Position numbers and translations under genes: made by a program. From Alphaproteobacteria bacterium (GTDB lineage Bacteria; Pseudomonadota; Alphaproteobacteria; Rickettsiales; SXRF01): 64,000 nt of DNA. Within the stretch, counting starts at the first letter, position 1. The number at the start of each line of letters is the position of its first letter. Under the pieces are notes generated by a model. That model did no database searches and was not told where the DNA came from. It saw nothing but the letters and a program-made list of their open reading frames with translations. Of this stretch, positions 29,735 to 31,614 are shown piece by piece. Location: the NCBI GenBank assembly GCA_039808985.1, contig JBDHUC010000007.1, positions 5,128 to 69,127 on the forward strand, given 5' to 3'.

Positions 29735-31614
29735 TGGATCCGCTGGGGAAGATACTCAGGGCACGCGGGCTTGTTTCTGAATCACAATTATCATACTTGC
29801 TGGAGGCTCAGAAACATTCCGGCAGCAGGCTTGGTGAAATAATAATATCTGAAGGCATACTAACTTATCTTGAACTATACAGGGCGATTGCCGAGCATTA
29901 CGAGCTTGAATTCATAAACCTTCTGGAAGAACCTCCAGATGAAAAACTGCTTACATGTATAAATGCTGTTGAGTATCTTCATTTTCAGGCAATACCATGG
30001 AAATTCAAGGATAATAAAATAATCGTAGCAATATCCGAATATTGCGATGAAACAATAAAATGGCTTTATGAAAGATATTCCGATAATTTTGAACTGGTTG
30101 CAACATCTCCCCTTGATATAAGAAAAACCGTAGAACGAATTTTCGGCGAATTCCTTGAGAAGGATAGCAAGCTTAGGCTATGGGAACAAAATCCCGACAT
30201 ATCTGCGCGTGTCACAGCATCAGGATTAACAAAACAAATTATTTATATTTCTATAATTTCAGCGCTGGCCCTGGCGGTTATGTTTCCAAGGCAAAGCAGC
30301 AGCTTATTTATATCGTTTTGCAGCATTTTATATTTTGTAAGCATCATAGTAAAAATGTATATTTTTTGTGTTGGCTGTAAACCGCAAGAAAAAACGAACT
30401 GGCCGCAACTGATTTCTGAATATGATGATGCAAGCCTCCCGGTATATACCGTGCTTATCCCCATGTATAACGAAGTTGCAAGCCTGCCAAATATGCTAGC
30501 TGCCATGCAGAATATGGATTACCCGAAGGAAAAACTGGATATAAAGCTAATATTGGAAGAAGATGATATTGAAACCATAAATGCTGCTATCGCCTTAAAA
30601 CCCAGACATAATTTTGAAATAATCCGCGTTCCATATAGTACACTTCGCACAAAGCCAAAAGCCTGTAATTATGCCCTGCGTTTTGCAAAGGGTGAATATG
30701 TAACGGTTTTTGACGCTGATGATATACCAGAAAGCCTGCAACTTAAAAAAGCCGTAACGATGTTCCGCAGCATCCCAGATAGCATAATCTGCCTGCAAGC
30801 CCGGCTTAATTACTATAATGCTGACACTAACTGGCTTACGCATTCCTTTTCGCTGGAATATAGCGCATTATTTAACATAATGCTGCGTGGCCTTGAGCGC
30901 CTTGGCGTCCCCTTGCCCTTGGGTGGCACCAGTAACCACATCTCCCTTGCCCATTTGCGTGATCTGGGCGAGTGGGACGCTTATAATGTGACCGAAGATG
31001 CTGATCTGGGCGTCAGGCTCGGCGCGCAGGGGTTTAAGACTGCATTATTAGATTCATACACAATGGAAGAAGCACCGGTTATGGTTTCTGCGTGGATTCG
31101 CCAGCGCTCCCGGTGGATAAAAGGCTATATGCAGACATGGCTTGTCCATATGCGCAATCCTTTCAGGCTATACAAAAAGCTTGGCTTTAAAAGCTTCTGC
31201 GGCTTTCAATTTTTCATTGGTTTTTCAAGCTTTACCTTCCTGACTGCTCCGATACTCTGGGCATTTGTCCTGTTATACTGGATTTTACCGCCATATTTAT
31301 CGGCACAGTGGCTGCCTTCATGGCTTCTATGGCTAAGCCTTAATAATTTTTTCCTGAATATTATAATACATTGGGTAATGATGTTATATTGTGTTTCAAG
31401 GAAGAAGAATCCTACTTATCAATATAAAATCGCAGCATTATTTTACCCGTTTTATTTAACTCTGCATTCAATAGCAAGCTACAAGGCGCTTTATCAACTT
31501 ATTGTAAAACCTCATTTTTGGGAAAAAACCACACATGGGGTTTCACAAGCATTAAAAAATGAAGGGCAAGTACCTAATTTTGCAACAAATATAGTATTGA
31601 CTGCCCGGTATTAA
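29734..31614 (+). CDS. membrane-bound processive family-2 glycosyltransferase with N-terminal MshEN (T2SSE_N) c-di-GMP-binding domain
   Basis: Tandem 24-residue MshEN motifs at residues 3-26 and 32-55. GT-A core VLIPMYNE and VFDADD. Processivity motif QRSRW. Two TM helices before the catalytic domain and several after it. Confidence 0.85.
   Translation: MDPLGKILRARGLVSESQLSYLLEAQKHSGSRLGEIIISEGILTYLELYRAIAEHYELEFINLLEEPPDEKLLTCINAVEYLHFQAIPWKFKDNKIIVAISEYCDETIKWLYERYSDNFELVATSPLDIRKTVERIFGEFLEKDSKLRLWEQNPDISARVTASGLTKQIIYISIISALALAVMFPRQSSSLFISFCSILYFVSIIVKMYIFCVGCKPQEKTNWPQLISEYDDASLPVYTVLIPMYNEVASLPNMLAAMQNMDYPKEKLDIKLILEEDDIETINAAIALKPRHNFEIIRVPYSTLRTKPKACNYALRFAKGEYVTVFDADDIPESLQLKKAVTMFRSIPDSIICLQARLNYYNADTNWLTHSFSLEYSALFNIMLRGLERLGVPLPLGGTSNHISLAHLRDLGEWDAYNVTEDADLGVRLGAQGFKTALLDSYTMEEAPVMVSAWIRQRSRWIKGYMQTWLVHMRNPFRLYKKLGFKSFCGFQFFIGFSSFTFLTAPILWAFVLLYWILPPYLSAQWLPSWLLWLSLNNFFLNIIIHWVMMLYCVSRKKNPTYQYKIAALFYPFYLTLHSIASYKALYQLIVKPHFWEKTTHGVSQALKNEGQVPNFATNIVLTARY

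What the first reader, a model, noticed from the sequence alone, without database searches (positions are those of the whole stretch)
29740..29898. Two near-consensus tandem MshEN c-di-GMP-binding motifs separated by exactly 5 residues
Seen in the sequence:
- Residues 3-26 read PLGKILRARGLVSESQLSYLLEAQ.
- A 5-residue spacer, KHSGS, follows.
- Residues 32-55 read RLGEIIISEGILTYLELYRAIAEH.

Established knowledge: the c-di-GMP-binding MshEN domain, defined on the Vibrio cholerae MshE N-terminus, is described as two copies of the 24-residue motif RLGxx(L/V/I)(L/V/I)xxG(L/V/I)(L/V/I)xxxxLxxxLxxQ joined by a 5-residue spacer.

Motif 1 deviates at positions 1 (P for R) and 7 (R). Motif 2 deviates at positions 21 (I for L) and 24 (H for Q). 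All Gly and hydrophobic anchor positions fit.

Inference: the glycosyltransferase is directly gated by c-di-GMP. No GGDEF, EAL or HD-GYP gene is present in this window.
Basis: partly seen in the sequence, partly recalled or inferred. Interest (0 to 1): 0.6.

Follow-up and report, generated by a model that had tools for sequence, protein, structure and literature searches.

The report
c-di-GMP sensor on a sugar-polymer synthase
The gene encodes an ordinary member of the widespread XagB family of membrane polysaccharide synthases, whose N-terminal MshEN domain very probably binds the bacterial signal c-di-GMP and switches the enzyme on, a domain combination catalogued in 2016 but never tested biochemically.

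Summary

This is far beyond chance. A curated NCBIfam model of the 53-residue c-di-GMP motif scores above its cut-off, and the genome holds only one other match. The domain aligns to the V. cholerae MshE:c-di-GMP crystal structure, and AlphaFold gives a confident four-helix bundle.

The rest of the protein is a processive BcsA/hyaluronan-synthase-like GT2 with DxD, TED and QxxRW. It is a full-length homologue of Xanthomonas XagB. The upstream ORF, joined by a TAATG overlap, is a XagA homologue predicted to be an outer-membrane barrel.

The genome has three intact GGDEF cyclases, two EAL matches, one HD-GYP-type match and no PilZ.

New comparative support: XagB homologues in genomes without GGDEF genes (Bacteroidota, and one relative in the same order) have lost both RLG glycines. 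Two other GGDEF-less relatives lack the gene.

The MshEN-GT2 architecture was listed by Wang et al. (2016), so this is a new member of a known kind. No binding assay on any XagB-type protein was found. Interest is modest.

The parts
29734..31614 (+). xagB-like gene: a 626-aa MshEN-TM-GT2 processive synthase
   Evidence: ORF. Pfam MshEN plus three GT2 models. 41% identity to Xanthomonas cucurbitae XagB over residues 12-628, E 1e-145. AF2 pLDDT 92.6, pTM 0.91.
29740..29811 (+). MshEN motif 1 (residues 3-26, PLGKILRARGLVSESQLSYLLEAQ)
   Evidence: Aligns to VcMshE residues 9-32.
29812..29826 (+). 5-residue spacer KHSGS (residues 27-31)
   Evidence: There are no indels anywhere in the 53 residues across 116 homologues.
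29827..29898 (+). MshEN motif 2 (residues 32-55, RLGEIIISEGILTYLELYRAIAEH)
   Evidence: R32, L33 and G34 are 98-100% conserved in alignment A1.
29899..30183 (+). MshEN_C (T2SSE_N1-like alpha/beta) subdomain plus connecting helix, residues 56-150
   Evidence: Pfam PF05157 on residues 56-139, 32 bits against a cut-off of 23.1. AF2 secondary structure. E102 corresponds to VcMshE D108 by extrapolating the ungapped alignment; E or D in 106 of 116 homologues.
30223..30384 (+). Two N-terminal transmembrane helices (residues 164-217), which put MshEN and the GT domain on the same cytoplasmic side
   Evidence: Hydropathy scan. AF2 helices 164-183 and 185-214.
30427..31143 (+). GT2 catalytic domain (residues 232-470) with DAD 327-329 (nt 30712-30720), TED 420-422 (nt 30991-30999) and QRSRW 457-461 (nt 31102-31116)
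   Evidence: The motif residues are invariant in A1. Aligns to BcsA.
31159..31506 (+). C-terminal interface and transmembrane helices (residues 476-591) forming the presumed polysaccharide channel
   Evidence: AF2 helices. Foldseek top hits are BcsA, hyaluronan synthases and chitin synthases.
31510..31539 (+). Family-invariant C-terminal motif PHFWEKTTHG (residues 593-602); a possible gating-loop analogue (inference only)
   Evidence: W596, K598, T599 and H601 are invariant; P593, H594 and G602 are at least 90% conserved in A1.
28865..29734 (+). xagA-like gene: a secreted, predicted outer-membrane beta-barrel. Its start is TTG 28865 or 28880, inside the end of atpF. Its TAA stop overlaps the xagB ATG (TAATG).
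   Evidence: tblastn with Xanthomonas XagA, E 4e-17. Adjacent to xagB in 34 loci. AF2 barrel pLDDT 89.7; best fold match is the COG4313 channel 4rl8, TM 0.71-0.75.

Best explanation
The ORF at 29734-31614 is a XagB-family, membrane-integrated processive family-2 glycosyltransferase. It is a synthase that both polymerises a sugar nucleotide and threads the polymer through its own transmembrane channel.

Its cytoplasmic N-terminus is a complete MshEN domain: a four-helix MshEN_N bundle carrying the 53-residue tandem motif, followed by MshEN_C. Two transmembrane helices place this domain on the same side of the membrane as the catalytic domain.

Proposed mechanism:
1. c-di-GMP is made by the genome's PleD-like and other GGDEF cyclases.
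2. It binds between the two motifs, held by the Leu/Ile triads and the RLG glycines.
3. The ligand-bound sensor allosterically releases the catalytic domain, as shown genetically for the MshEN domain of NfrB and structurally for the PilZ domain of BcsA.
4. The nascent exopolysaccharide then crosses the outer membrane through the translationally coupled XagA-like barrel.

What is shown here: the motif, the domain homology, the catalytic signatures, the fold, the XagA/XagB pairing, the presence of c-di-GMP enzymes, and the co-variation of motif integrity with GGDEF presence.

What is inferred: actual binding, the sign of the regulation (activation), the identity of the polymer, and XagA as its exit pore.
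For: Sensor domain:
- NF053729 matches residues 3-54 at 48.5 bits against a cut-off of 38. It is one of only two matches in the genome.
- phmmer to 5htl_A (MshE N-domain) gives E 5.5e-8 over residues 4-100. The c-di-GMP-binding PilF domains score similarly.
- All positions where mutation costs more than 10-fold affinity in VcMshE are kept: L4, G5, G12, L19, L23, L33, G34, G41, L48 and I52.
- None of the eight substitutions that inactivate the Xanthomonas non-binder XpsE is present.
- There are no indels in the 53 residues in 116 homologues, and P3 and H55 are the family's modal residues.
- AF2 gives pLDDT 92.6 and pTM 0.91, with helices 4-10, 16-29, 33-39 and 45-55.

Synthase:
- DAD327, TED420 and QRSRW457 are present and invariant.
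- Foldseek top hits are BcsA:c-di-GMP (4p00), hyaluronan synthases and chitin synthases.

c-di-GMP supply:
- There are three intact GG(D/E)EF proteins, two EAL matches and one HD_5 match.

Comparative evidence:
- Nine Bacteroidota genomes whose XagB homologues have lost both RLG glycines have no GGDEF in 8 of 9. Eight genomes with intact motifs have 3-35.
- Within the window's own order, 3 of 31 genomes lack GGDEF. Two of these lack xagB, and the third keeps xagB with SIE/TVT in place of xLG/RLG.

Partner:
- A XagA homologue overlaps by TAATG and is predicted to be a barrel.

Precedent:
- NfrB needs its MshEN c-di-GMP site to function (PMC8669469).
- The MshEN-Glyco_trans_2_3 architecture is listed in Wang et al. 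2016, Supplementary Table 4.
Against: - No XagB-type MshEN domain has been assayed for c-di-GMP binding in the literature I could search.
- Neither motif satisfies the published relaxed pattern. R9 replaces a core hydrophobic at motif-1 position 7, and H55 replaces Gln at motif-2 position 24.
- Pro replaces the Arg that stacks on guanine 1.
- Wang et al. state that some proteins with MshEN-containing architectures lack a recognisable motif. One c-di-GMP-proficient genome here (Devosia, 26 GGDEF) has a decayed motif, so the sensor is dispensable in some lineages.
- The Bacteroidota comparison is one clade, so it counts as roughly one evolutionary event.
- In Xanthomonas the documented control of xag is transcriptional, through RpfG (PMC3609779). 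That is not evidence for post-translational gating.
- The xagC and xagD partners of the Xanthomonas operon are absent from this genome.
Confidence: 0.75

Rival explanations
1. The N-terminal domain is a degenerate MshEN that no longer binds c-di-GMP, as in Xanthomonas XpsE. It would serve only as a structural, oligomerisation or partner-docking module of the synthase.
For: - P replaces the guanine-stacking Arg.
- R sits at a bundle-core position and H replaces Gln.
- Neither motif fits the published relaxed regex.
- Degenerate versions of this very domain persist in Bacteroidota, Devosia and G020, so the domain has a function that does not need the ligand.
- No binding data exist for the family.
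Against: - The curated motif model scores above its cut-off.
- All high-impact Gly and Leu positions are kept, and none of the XpsE-type inactivating changes is present.
- The motif is under strong purifying selection in relatives that have GGDEF genes and decays where these are absent.
Confidence: 0.13
2. The domain binds a nucleotide, but the physiological ligand is another cyclic dinucleotide (for example 3'3'-cGAMP), or binding inhibits rather than activates the synthase.
For: VcMshEN also binds cGAMP, more weakly (PMC5013675, section list and Figure 1h legend). K6 replaces the Asp12 of VcMshE, the residue whose backbone amide reads guanine O6. The sign of the regulation cannot be read from sequence.
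Against: Motif integrity tracks GGDEF presence. The O6 contact is made by a backbone amide, not the side chain. Every characterised c-di-GMP-binding synthase (BcsA, PgaCD, NfrB, BgsA) is activated by the ligand; that is established knowledge and is also stated in PMC8669469.
Confidence: 0.08
3. The tandem motif is a chance resemblance in an amphipathic helical N-terminus.
For: The motif consists largely of Leu/Ile/Val and Gly at helical spacing, which is common in helical proteins.
Against: - The per-genome E-value is 4.4e-14, with only two genome-wide matches.
- The tandem anchor regex gives 1 hit against 0 in shuffles.
- Homology extends over about 100 residues to solved MshEN structures.
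- The motif is conserved without indels across phyla.
Confidence: 0.01

Closest known systems
XagB of the Xanthomonas xagABCD operon (KEGG 'glycosyltransferase XagB'; Tao et al. 2010, cited in PMC4643136; PMC3609779)
   Same: Full-length homologue: 41% identity over residues 12-628, E 1e-145. The Pfam architecture is the same, MshEN plus GT2. A xagA homologue lies immediately upstream. In Xanthomonas the operon makes a biofilm polysaccharide and is up-regulated when the HD-GYP phosphodiesterase RpfG is deleted.
   Different: No xagC or xagD (GH113) homologue exists anywhere in this genome. Here the pair follows the ATP synthase F0 genes. Xanthomonas motif 2 is less canonical, with R at the Gly-10 position. 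XagB has never been shown to bind c-di-GMP.
'MshEN - Glyco_trans_2_3' architecture, represented by Rhodobacter sphaeroides Rsph17029_0522 (Wang et al. 2016, Supplementary Table 4)
   Same: Identical domain order. It is listed as occurring in Actinobacteria, Firmicutes and Proteobacteria. My scan found at least 598 species carrying relatives, across many phyla.
   Different: The catalogue entry is bioinformatic only. The paper cites no binding measurement for this architecture.
E. coli NfrB (with NfrA and YbcH): a c-di-GMP-activated GT2 exopolysaccharide synthase (PMC8669469)
   Same: A processive GT2 with DxD/TED/QxxRW joined through two transmembrane helices to an MshEN c-di-GMP sensor, encoded next to an outer-membrane protein gene with overlapping reading frames.
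   Different: The domain order is reversed: in NfrB the GT is N-terminal and MshEN is C-terminal. NF008411 scores 30.5 bits against a cut-off of 1170, and only the MshEN part aligns. The outer-membrane partner here is a small COG4313-like barrel, not a TPR-barrel like NfrA, and there is no YbcH.
BcsA cellulose synthase (4p00) and hyaluronan synthases
   Same: Best structural matches. The GT2 core plus transmembrane channel and the catalytic motifs are the same. BcsA is likewise gated by c-di-GMP.
   Different: BcsA senses c-di-GMP through a C-terminal PilZ domain, whereas this genome has no PilZ domain at all. TIGR03030 scores 94.8 bits against a cut-off of 699. Sequence identity is about 14-20%.
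Sfz2/Sfb2 of stalk-forming iron oxidisers (PMC8250860; PMC4643136)
   Same: Mariprofundus ferrooxydans PV-1 carries a homologue (39% identity) with the same GT motifs. These papers propose it as the synthase of the stalk polysaccharide.
   Different: Mariprofundus proteins carry two tandem MshEN_N modules. They are paired with a BcsB-like protein rather than XagA. The authors read the N-terminus as an 'EpsE-like T2SS domain' and looked for RxxD/RxxxR motifs instead.

Membership tests
MshEN c-di-GMP-binding domain (Wang et al. 2016) | Two 24-residue motifs joined by a 5-residue spacer, 53 residues in all | tested here: met
   Residues 3-26, 27-31 and 32-55. NF053729 scores 48.5 bits against a cut-off of 38 and 53.5 bits in the genome scan.
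MshEN c-di-GMP-binding domain (Wang et al. 2016) | Glycines at VcMshE positions 11, 18, 40 and 47 | tested here: met
   G5, G12, G34 and G41. G34 is invariant and G5 is present in 115 of 116 homologues.
MshEN c-di-GMP-binding domain (Wang et al. 2016) | Two hydrophobic triads, L10/L54/L58 and L25/L29/L39 | tested here: met
   L4/L48/I52 and L19/L23/L33. The only change is the conservative Ile for L58.
MshEN c-di-GMP-binding domain (Wang et al. 2016) | Arg at position 1 and Gln at position 24 of each motif | tested here: not met
   Motif 1 starts with P3; P is allowed in the published relaxed pattern. Motif 2 ends with H55, which is not in the relaxed pattern. R32 and Q26 are present. Changing Arg9, Asp12 or Gln32 in MshE altered affinity by no more than about five-fold.
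MshEN c-di-GMP-binding domain (Wang et al. 2016) | Four-helix MshEN_N bundle followed by the MshEN_C (T2SSE_N1) subdomain | tested here: met
   AF2 helices 4-10, 16-29, 33-39 and 45-55 with pLDDT at least 93. PF05157 on residues 56-139. 5htl_A E 5.5e-8.
MshEN c-di-GMP-binding domain (Wang et al. 2016) | Measured, specific c-di-GMP binding | not testable with these tools
   Needs ITC, DRaCALA or MST on purified protein.
Processive membrane-integrated GT2 synthases (BcsA, HAS, chitin synthase type) | DxD, TED and QxxRW catalytic signatures | tested here: met
   DAD327, TED420 and QRSRW457, invariant in 116 homologues.
Processive membrane-integrated GT2 synthases (BcsA, HAS, chitin synthase type) | GT-A fold fused to a transmembrane channel | tested here: met
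   Foldseek hits: 4p00_A E 1.6e-14, 8smp_A and 7sp8_A. Transmembrane helices at 164-217 and 485-591.
Processive membrane-integrated GT2 synthases (BcsA, HAS, chitin synthase type) | Demonstrated polymer product and donor sugar | not testable with these tools
   Only hints are available: Xanthomonas XagD is GH113, a beta-mannanase family, and there is a weak sequence match to the mannosyltransferase 6yv7.
XagB / xagABCD system | Full-length homology to Xanthomonas XagB, including the N-terminal domain | tested here: met
   tblastn: 41% identity over residues 12-628, E 1e-145. Several homologues are named XagB by JGI.
XagB / xagABCD system | xagA directly upstream | tested here: met
   Xanthomonas XagA against the genome hits window 28958-29731, E 4e-17. 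The mature N-terminus GAWTQ is shared.
XagB / xagABCD system | xagC and xagD (GH113) downstream | tested here: not met
   tblastn finds no hit at E 1e-2 or better anywhere in the genome. The downstream neighbour is a convergent trypsin-like protease gene.
NfrB family (NF008411) | GT2 at the N-terminus with MshEN at the C-terminus; equivalog score | tested here: not met
   The domain order is reversed. The score is 30.5 bits against a cut-off of 1170, and only residues 2-105 align to NfrB 482-584.
BcsA cellulose synthase (TIGR03030) | C-terminal PilZ domain; equivalog score | tested here: not met
   No PilZ match in the whole genome. The score is 94.8 bits against a cut-off of 699.

The most novel reading that the evidence does not exclude
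XagA plus XagB may be a self-sufficient two-protein machine for c-di-GMP-gated synthesis and export of a polysaccharide, with no periplasmic scaffold, hydrolase or TPR partner.

Supporting observations:
- It is a near-universal single-copy core feature of an entire order of small-genome (1.1-2.7 Mb) Alphaproteobacteria.
- It is physically appended to, and probably co-transcribed with, the ATP synthase F0 operon.
- MshEN is the only recognisable c-di-GMP receptor class in this genome; there is no PilZ.

On this reading the polymer would be a constitutively encoded envelope or attachment component. Its output would be set post-translationally by the PleD-type cell-cycle cyclase rather than by a dedicated biofilm regulon.
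Probability: 0.25. Interest if true: 0.55.

Novelty: new member of a known kind. Interest (0 to 1): 0.3.

Why it matters
For this genome, it identifies one of only two recognisable c-di-GMP receptors. The other is an MshE/PilB-type ATPase. It links a very small c-di-GMP network (three cyclases, no PilZ) to a concrete output, an exported polysaccharide.

For the field, the XagB family is very large. At least 7,999 database clusters and at least 598 species were found, including Xanthomonas biofilm genes and the candidate stalk synthase of iron-oxidising bacteria. Yet its N-terminal sensor has never been assayed and has been misread in at least one paper.

The co-variation found here gives cheap comparative support for the prediction. 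The motif is intact where GGDEF genes exist, and it is decayed or the gene is lost where they do not. This also singles out natural 'sensor-dead' variants as controls.

None of this changes current concepts. It extends the NfrB precedent to the permuted architecture.

Tried and rejected
- **Chance motif:** rejected by the HMM scan, the regex scan and shuffles.
- **NfrB orthologue:** rejected. The domain order is reversed and the score is far below the equivalog cut-off.
- **Cellulose or PGA synthase:** rejected as family assignments, because scores are far below cut-off and there is no PilZ.
- **Search for xagC/xagD in the genome:** none found.
- **Pfam on the upstream ORF:** no hit. A homologue in L011 hits PF13557, and the fold search resolved it as a COG4313-like barrel.
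- **Promoter/terminator scan of 26400-32000:** counts are at the chance level and there is no convincing terminator between atpF and xagA. This is uninformative beyond being compatible with co-transcription.
- **Literature searches for a binding assay on XagB-type proteins:** nothing found. The library omits most subscription journals, so absence is not proof.
- **Model coordinates:** I could not access them, so the contact between MshEN and the catalytic domain or the C-terminal loop was not analysed.
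Full report
**1. The observation**

The ORF at 29734-31614 (+) encodes 626 aa beginning MDPLGKILRARGLVSESQLSYLLEAQKHSGSRLGEIIISEGILTYLELYRAIAEH.
- Motif 1 is residues 3-26 (nt 29740-29811).
- The spacer KHSGS is residues 27-31.
- Motif 2 is residues 32-55 (nt 29827-29898).

A position-by-position comparison with the published 24-residue motif reproduces the four deviations: P at 1 and R at 7 in motif 1, and I at 21 and H at 24 in motif 2.

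One correction of emphasis is needed. Neither motif passes the relaxed search pattern printed in the Methods of Wang et al. 2016, [RKPN]hGxxhhxx[GAS]hhxxxxhxxxhxx[QNKRYWST]. R at motif-1 position 7 and H at motif-2 position 24 fall outside it.

**2. More than chance**

- The curated NCBIfam model NF053729 ('cyclic di-GMP-binding domain, MshE-related', 53 positions) matches residues 3-54 at 48.5 bits against a cut-off of 38.
- In a six-frame search of the whole 2.05-Mb genome, the model finds just two places: this one (53.5 bits, E 4.4e-14) and a 602-aa MshE/PilB-type ATPase on contig C3.
- A regex of the anchor positions shared by the two motifs hits three times singly and once in tandem in 4.09 million six-frame residues. 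Residue shuffles give about 0.2 and 0.
- Pfam's MshEN model covers residues 56-139, the C-subdomain.
- phmmer aligns residues 4-100 without gaps to the V. cholerae MshE N-domain crystallised with c-di-GMP (5htl_A, E 5.5e-8). It also aligns to the c-di-GMP-binding domains of Thermus PilF.

**3. Is the site likely to be competent?**

With the ungapped offset of 6, the VcMshE contacts map as follows:

| VcMshE | This protein |
|---|---|
| R9 | P3 |
| L10 | L4 |
| G11 | G5 |
| G18 | G12 |
| L25 | L19 |
| L29 | L23 |
| Q32 | Q26 |
| R38 | R32 |
| L39 | L33 |
| G40 | G34 |
| G47 | G41 |
| L54 | L48 |
| L58 | I52 |
| Q61 | H55 |

- Wang et al. report that mutating any conserved hydrophobic residue lowers affinity more than 10-fold, and that G11L and G40I abolish stabilisation by the ligand. 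Changes at Arg9, Asp12 and Gln32 altered affinity no more than about five-fold. All high-impact positions are kept here, and the deviations are polar substitutions of the low-impact kind, although the Gln61 position itself was not among those tested.
- None of the eight substitutions said to inactivate the non-binder XpsE is present.
- In the 116 closest homologues (46-81% identity) the 53 residues contain no indel. P is the commonest residue at motif-1 position 1 (50 of 116). H is the commonest at motif-2 position 24 (64 of 116). Motif-1 position 7 is variable, with R in 19 of 116. The deviations are therefore family traits, not decay.
- AlphaFold2 with this alignment gives pLDDT 92.6 and pTM 0.91, with four helices at 4-10, 16-29, 33-39 and 45-55.

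**4. The rest of the protein**

- Two transmembrane helices (residues 164-217) follow the sensor. Then comes a GT2 domain with DAD327, TED420 and QRSRW457, all invariant in the family. Further helices run to residue 591.
- The best sequence and fold matches among solved structures are Rhodobacter and E. coli BcsA (including the c-di-GMP complex 4p00), hyaluronan synthases and chitin synthases.
- It is therefore a processive, channel-forming synthase, with sensor and catalytic domain on the same side of the membrane.
- An invariant C-terminal PHFWEKTTHG (residues 593-602) may be the counterpart of the FxVTxK gating loop. This is inference only.

**5. Family identity**

- Database homologues with the same four Pfam domains saturate the search: 7,999 of 8,000 scored candidates. 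Several are named 'glycosyltransferase XagB'.
- A scan of one genome per species found at least 598 species with relatives, from Alphaproteobacteria, Xanthomonas and Mariprofundus to Firmicutes, Actinomycetota, Chloroflexota, Thermotogae and Bacteroidota.
- Xanthomonas cucurbitae XagB is 41% identical over residues 12-628, E 1e-145, and has the same Pfam architecture.
- The upstream 289-aa ORF (28865 or 28880 to 29734) has a TAA stop that overlaps the xagB ATG (TAATG). It is homologous to Xanthomonas XagA (E 4e-17), with the same mature N-terminus GAWTQ.
- This ORF lies next to xagB in 34 loci, and most copies end in an aromatic residue. One homologue hits Pfam Phenol_MetA_deg.
- AlphaFold predicts a beta-barrel (pLDDT 89.7). 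Its best structural match is the COG4313 outer-membrane channel 4rl8 (TM 0.71-0.75), followed by the FapF transporter.
- The Xanthomonas partners xagC and xagD (GH113) have no homologue anywhere in this genome.

**6. c-di-GMP in this organism**

- The genome has four GGDEF matches. Three have intact GG(D/E)EF, including a PleD-like REC-REC-GGDEF.
- It has two EAL matches, one HD_5 (HD-GYP-type) match, and no PilZ domain.
- None of these genes is in the window.

**7. A comparative test**

If the motif is kept for c-di-GMP, it should decay where the messenger is absent.

- Of 86 homologous loci, 23 lacked a recognisable 53-residue motif. Most of these are Bacteroidota. In them the N-domain persists, but both RLG glycines are replaced (SIP/ISIP and SYIK/SFIK).
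- Nine such Bacteroidota genomes have no GGDEF match in eight cases and one weak match in the ninth. Eight genomes with intact motifs have 3-35 matches.
- This is one clade, so it counts as about one event. There is also a counter-example: Devosia has a decayed motif and 26 GGDEF matches.
- A second, independent case lies within the window's own order. xagB is single-copy in 29 of 31 genomes and GGDEF is present in 28 of 31.
- Of the three GGDEF-less genomes, two lack xagB. The third (G020) keeps it with SIE and TVT in place of xLG and RLG. GGDEF-bearing relatives at similar divergence keep PIG/PLG and RIG/RLG.
- This pattern is what direct c-di-GMP sensing predicts. It also shows that the domain has some ligand-independent role.

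**8. What is known**

- Wang et al. 2016 list 'MshEN - Glyco_trans_2_3' (Rhodobacter sphaeroides Rsph17029_0522; Actinobacteria, Firmicutes, Proteobacteria) beside the reversed 'Glyco_trans_2_3 - MshEN' of NfrB. They cite no assay for the former.
- NfrB was later shown to bind c-di-GMP and to need both its MshEN site and its GT site.
- xagABCD is a genetically defined biofilm-polysaccharide operon, up-regulated in rpfG mutants.
- The Mariprofundus homologue Sfz2 is a candidate stalk synthase. Its N-terminus was read as an 'EpsE-like T2SS domain'.
- I found no binding or activity study of a XagB-type protein. The library searched is incomplete.

**9. Verdict**

The most likely mechanism is activation of a XagB-type synthase by c-di-GMP bound to its N-terminal MshEN domain, with export through XagA (confidence 0.75). 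The main rival is a non-binding, purely structural domain (0.13).

This is a new member of a known kind. The architecture was catalogued in 2016 and a curated model already flags the motif. Interest is modest (0.3).

The parts that go beyond routine annotation are:
- the motif/GGDEF co-variation;
- the minimal xagAB pair;
- its conserved attachment to the ATP synthase F0 operon;
- the absence of PilZ.

Noticed in passing
window 26838-31614; loci L007-L012, L014-L018, L021, L025, L026, L030, L061: The order atpB-(atpE)-atpF'-atpF-xagA-xagB is conserved in 16 loci from divergent Alphaproteobacteria, down to about 40% XagB identity. xagA starts inside or right after atpF. No terminator-like site separates them in the window. 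Why a polysaccharide synthase pair should ride on the F0 operon is unexplained.
   Followed up: partly
genome contig C3:92658-94463 (-), locus L093: The only other MshEN c-di-GMP motif in the genome (61.8 bits) is in a 602-aa MshE/PilB-type secretion ATPase with a near-perfect motif (LRLGEKLIALGLLSPDQLEIVLTEQ KNSKK LIGAILVEMGFLTESALGEVLAES). The genome has no PilZ domain, so MshEN may be its only classical c-di-GMP receptor type.
   Followed up: partly
loci L046, L051, L053, L060, L063, L066, L075, L041, L087 (Bacteroidota); L096 (relative G020): XagB homologues in genomes without GGDEF genes keep the N-terminal domain but have lost both RLG glycines. These are natural 'sensor-dead' variants. 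Devosia (L019) has a decayed motif despite 26 GGDEF genes.
   Followed up: yes
loci L035, L042, L049 (Mariprofundus); L071 (Paenibacillus), L074 (Desulforamulus), L086 (Oscillospiraceae): Some XagB-region loci carry two tandem MshEN_N modules on the synthase (Mariprofundus). Firmicutes loci show three to five motif matches, which suggests multi-sensor variants.
   Followed up: no
window 31510-31539 (residues 593-602): An invariant C-terminal PHFWEKTTHG follows the last transmembrane helix (W596, K598, T599, H601 in 116 of 116). It resembles the FxVTxK gating loop of cellulose synthases. Its role is untested.
   Followed up: no
locus L022 7130-8095 (Xanthomonas cucurbitae xagD): XagD matches Pfam GH113, a beta-mannanase family (E 8e-32). 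This hints that the Xag polymer may be a beta-mannan-like glycan. No xagC or xagD exists in the window's genome.
   Followed up: partly
relatives G007, G016, G003, G029: In some relatives the xagB frame carries in-frame stops: one each in G007, G016 and G003, and eight in G029, where only a 252-aa remnant matches. This suggests occasional pseudogenisation, or assembly errors, in an otherwise core gene.
   Followed up: no
window 28865-28899: xagA has no ATG start. The candidate starts are TTG at 28865 or 28880, both inside the last 35 nt of atpF. The predicted signal peptide ends AYA|GAWTQ.
   Followed up: partly
window 31801-33588 (-): Downstream and convergent to xagB lie a secreted trypsin-like protease (Trypsin_2) and a MotB-like protein (MotB_plug plus OmpA) with a long acidic linker. 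No motA is adjacent.
   Followed up: no
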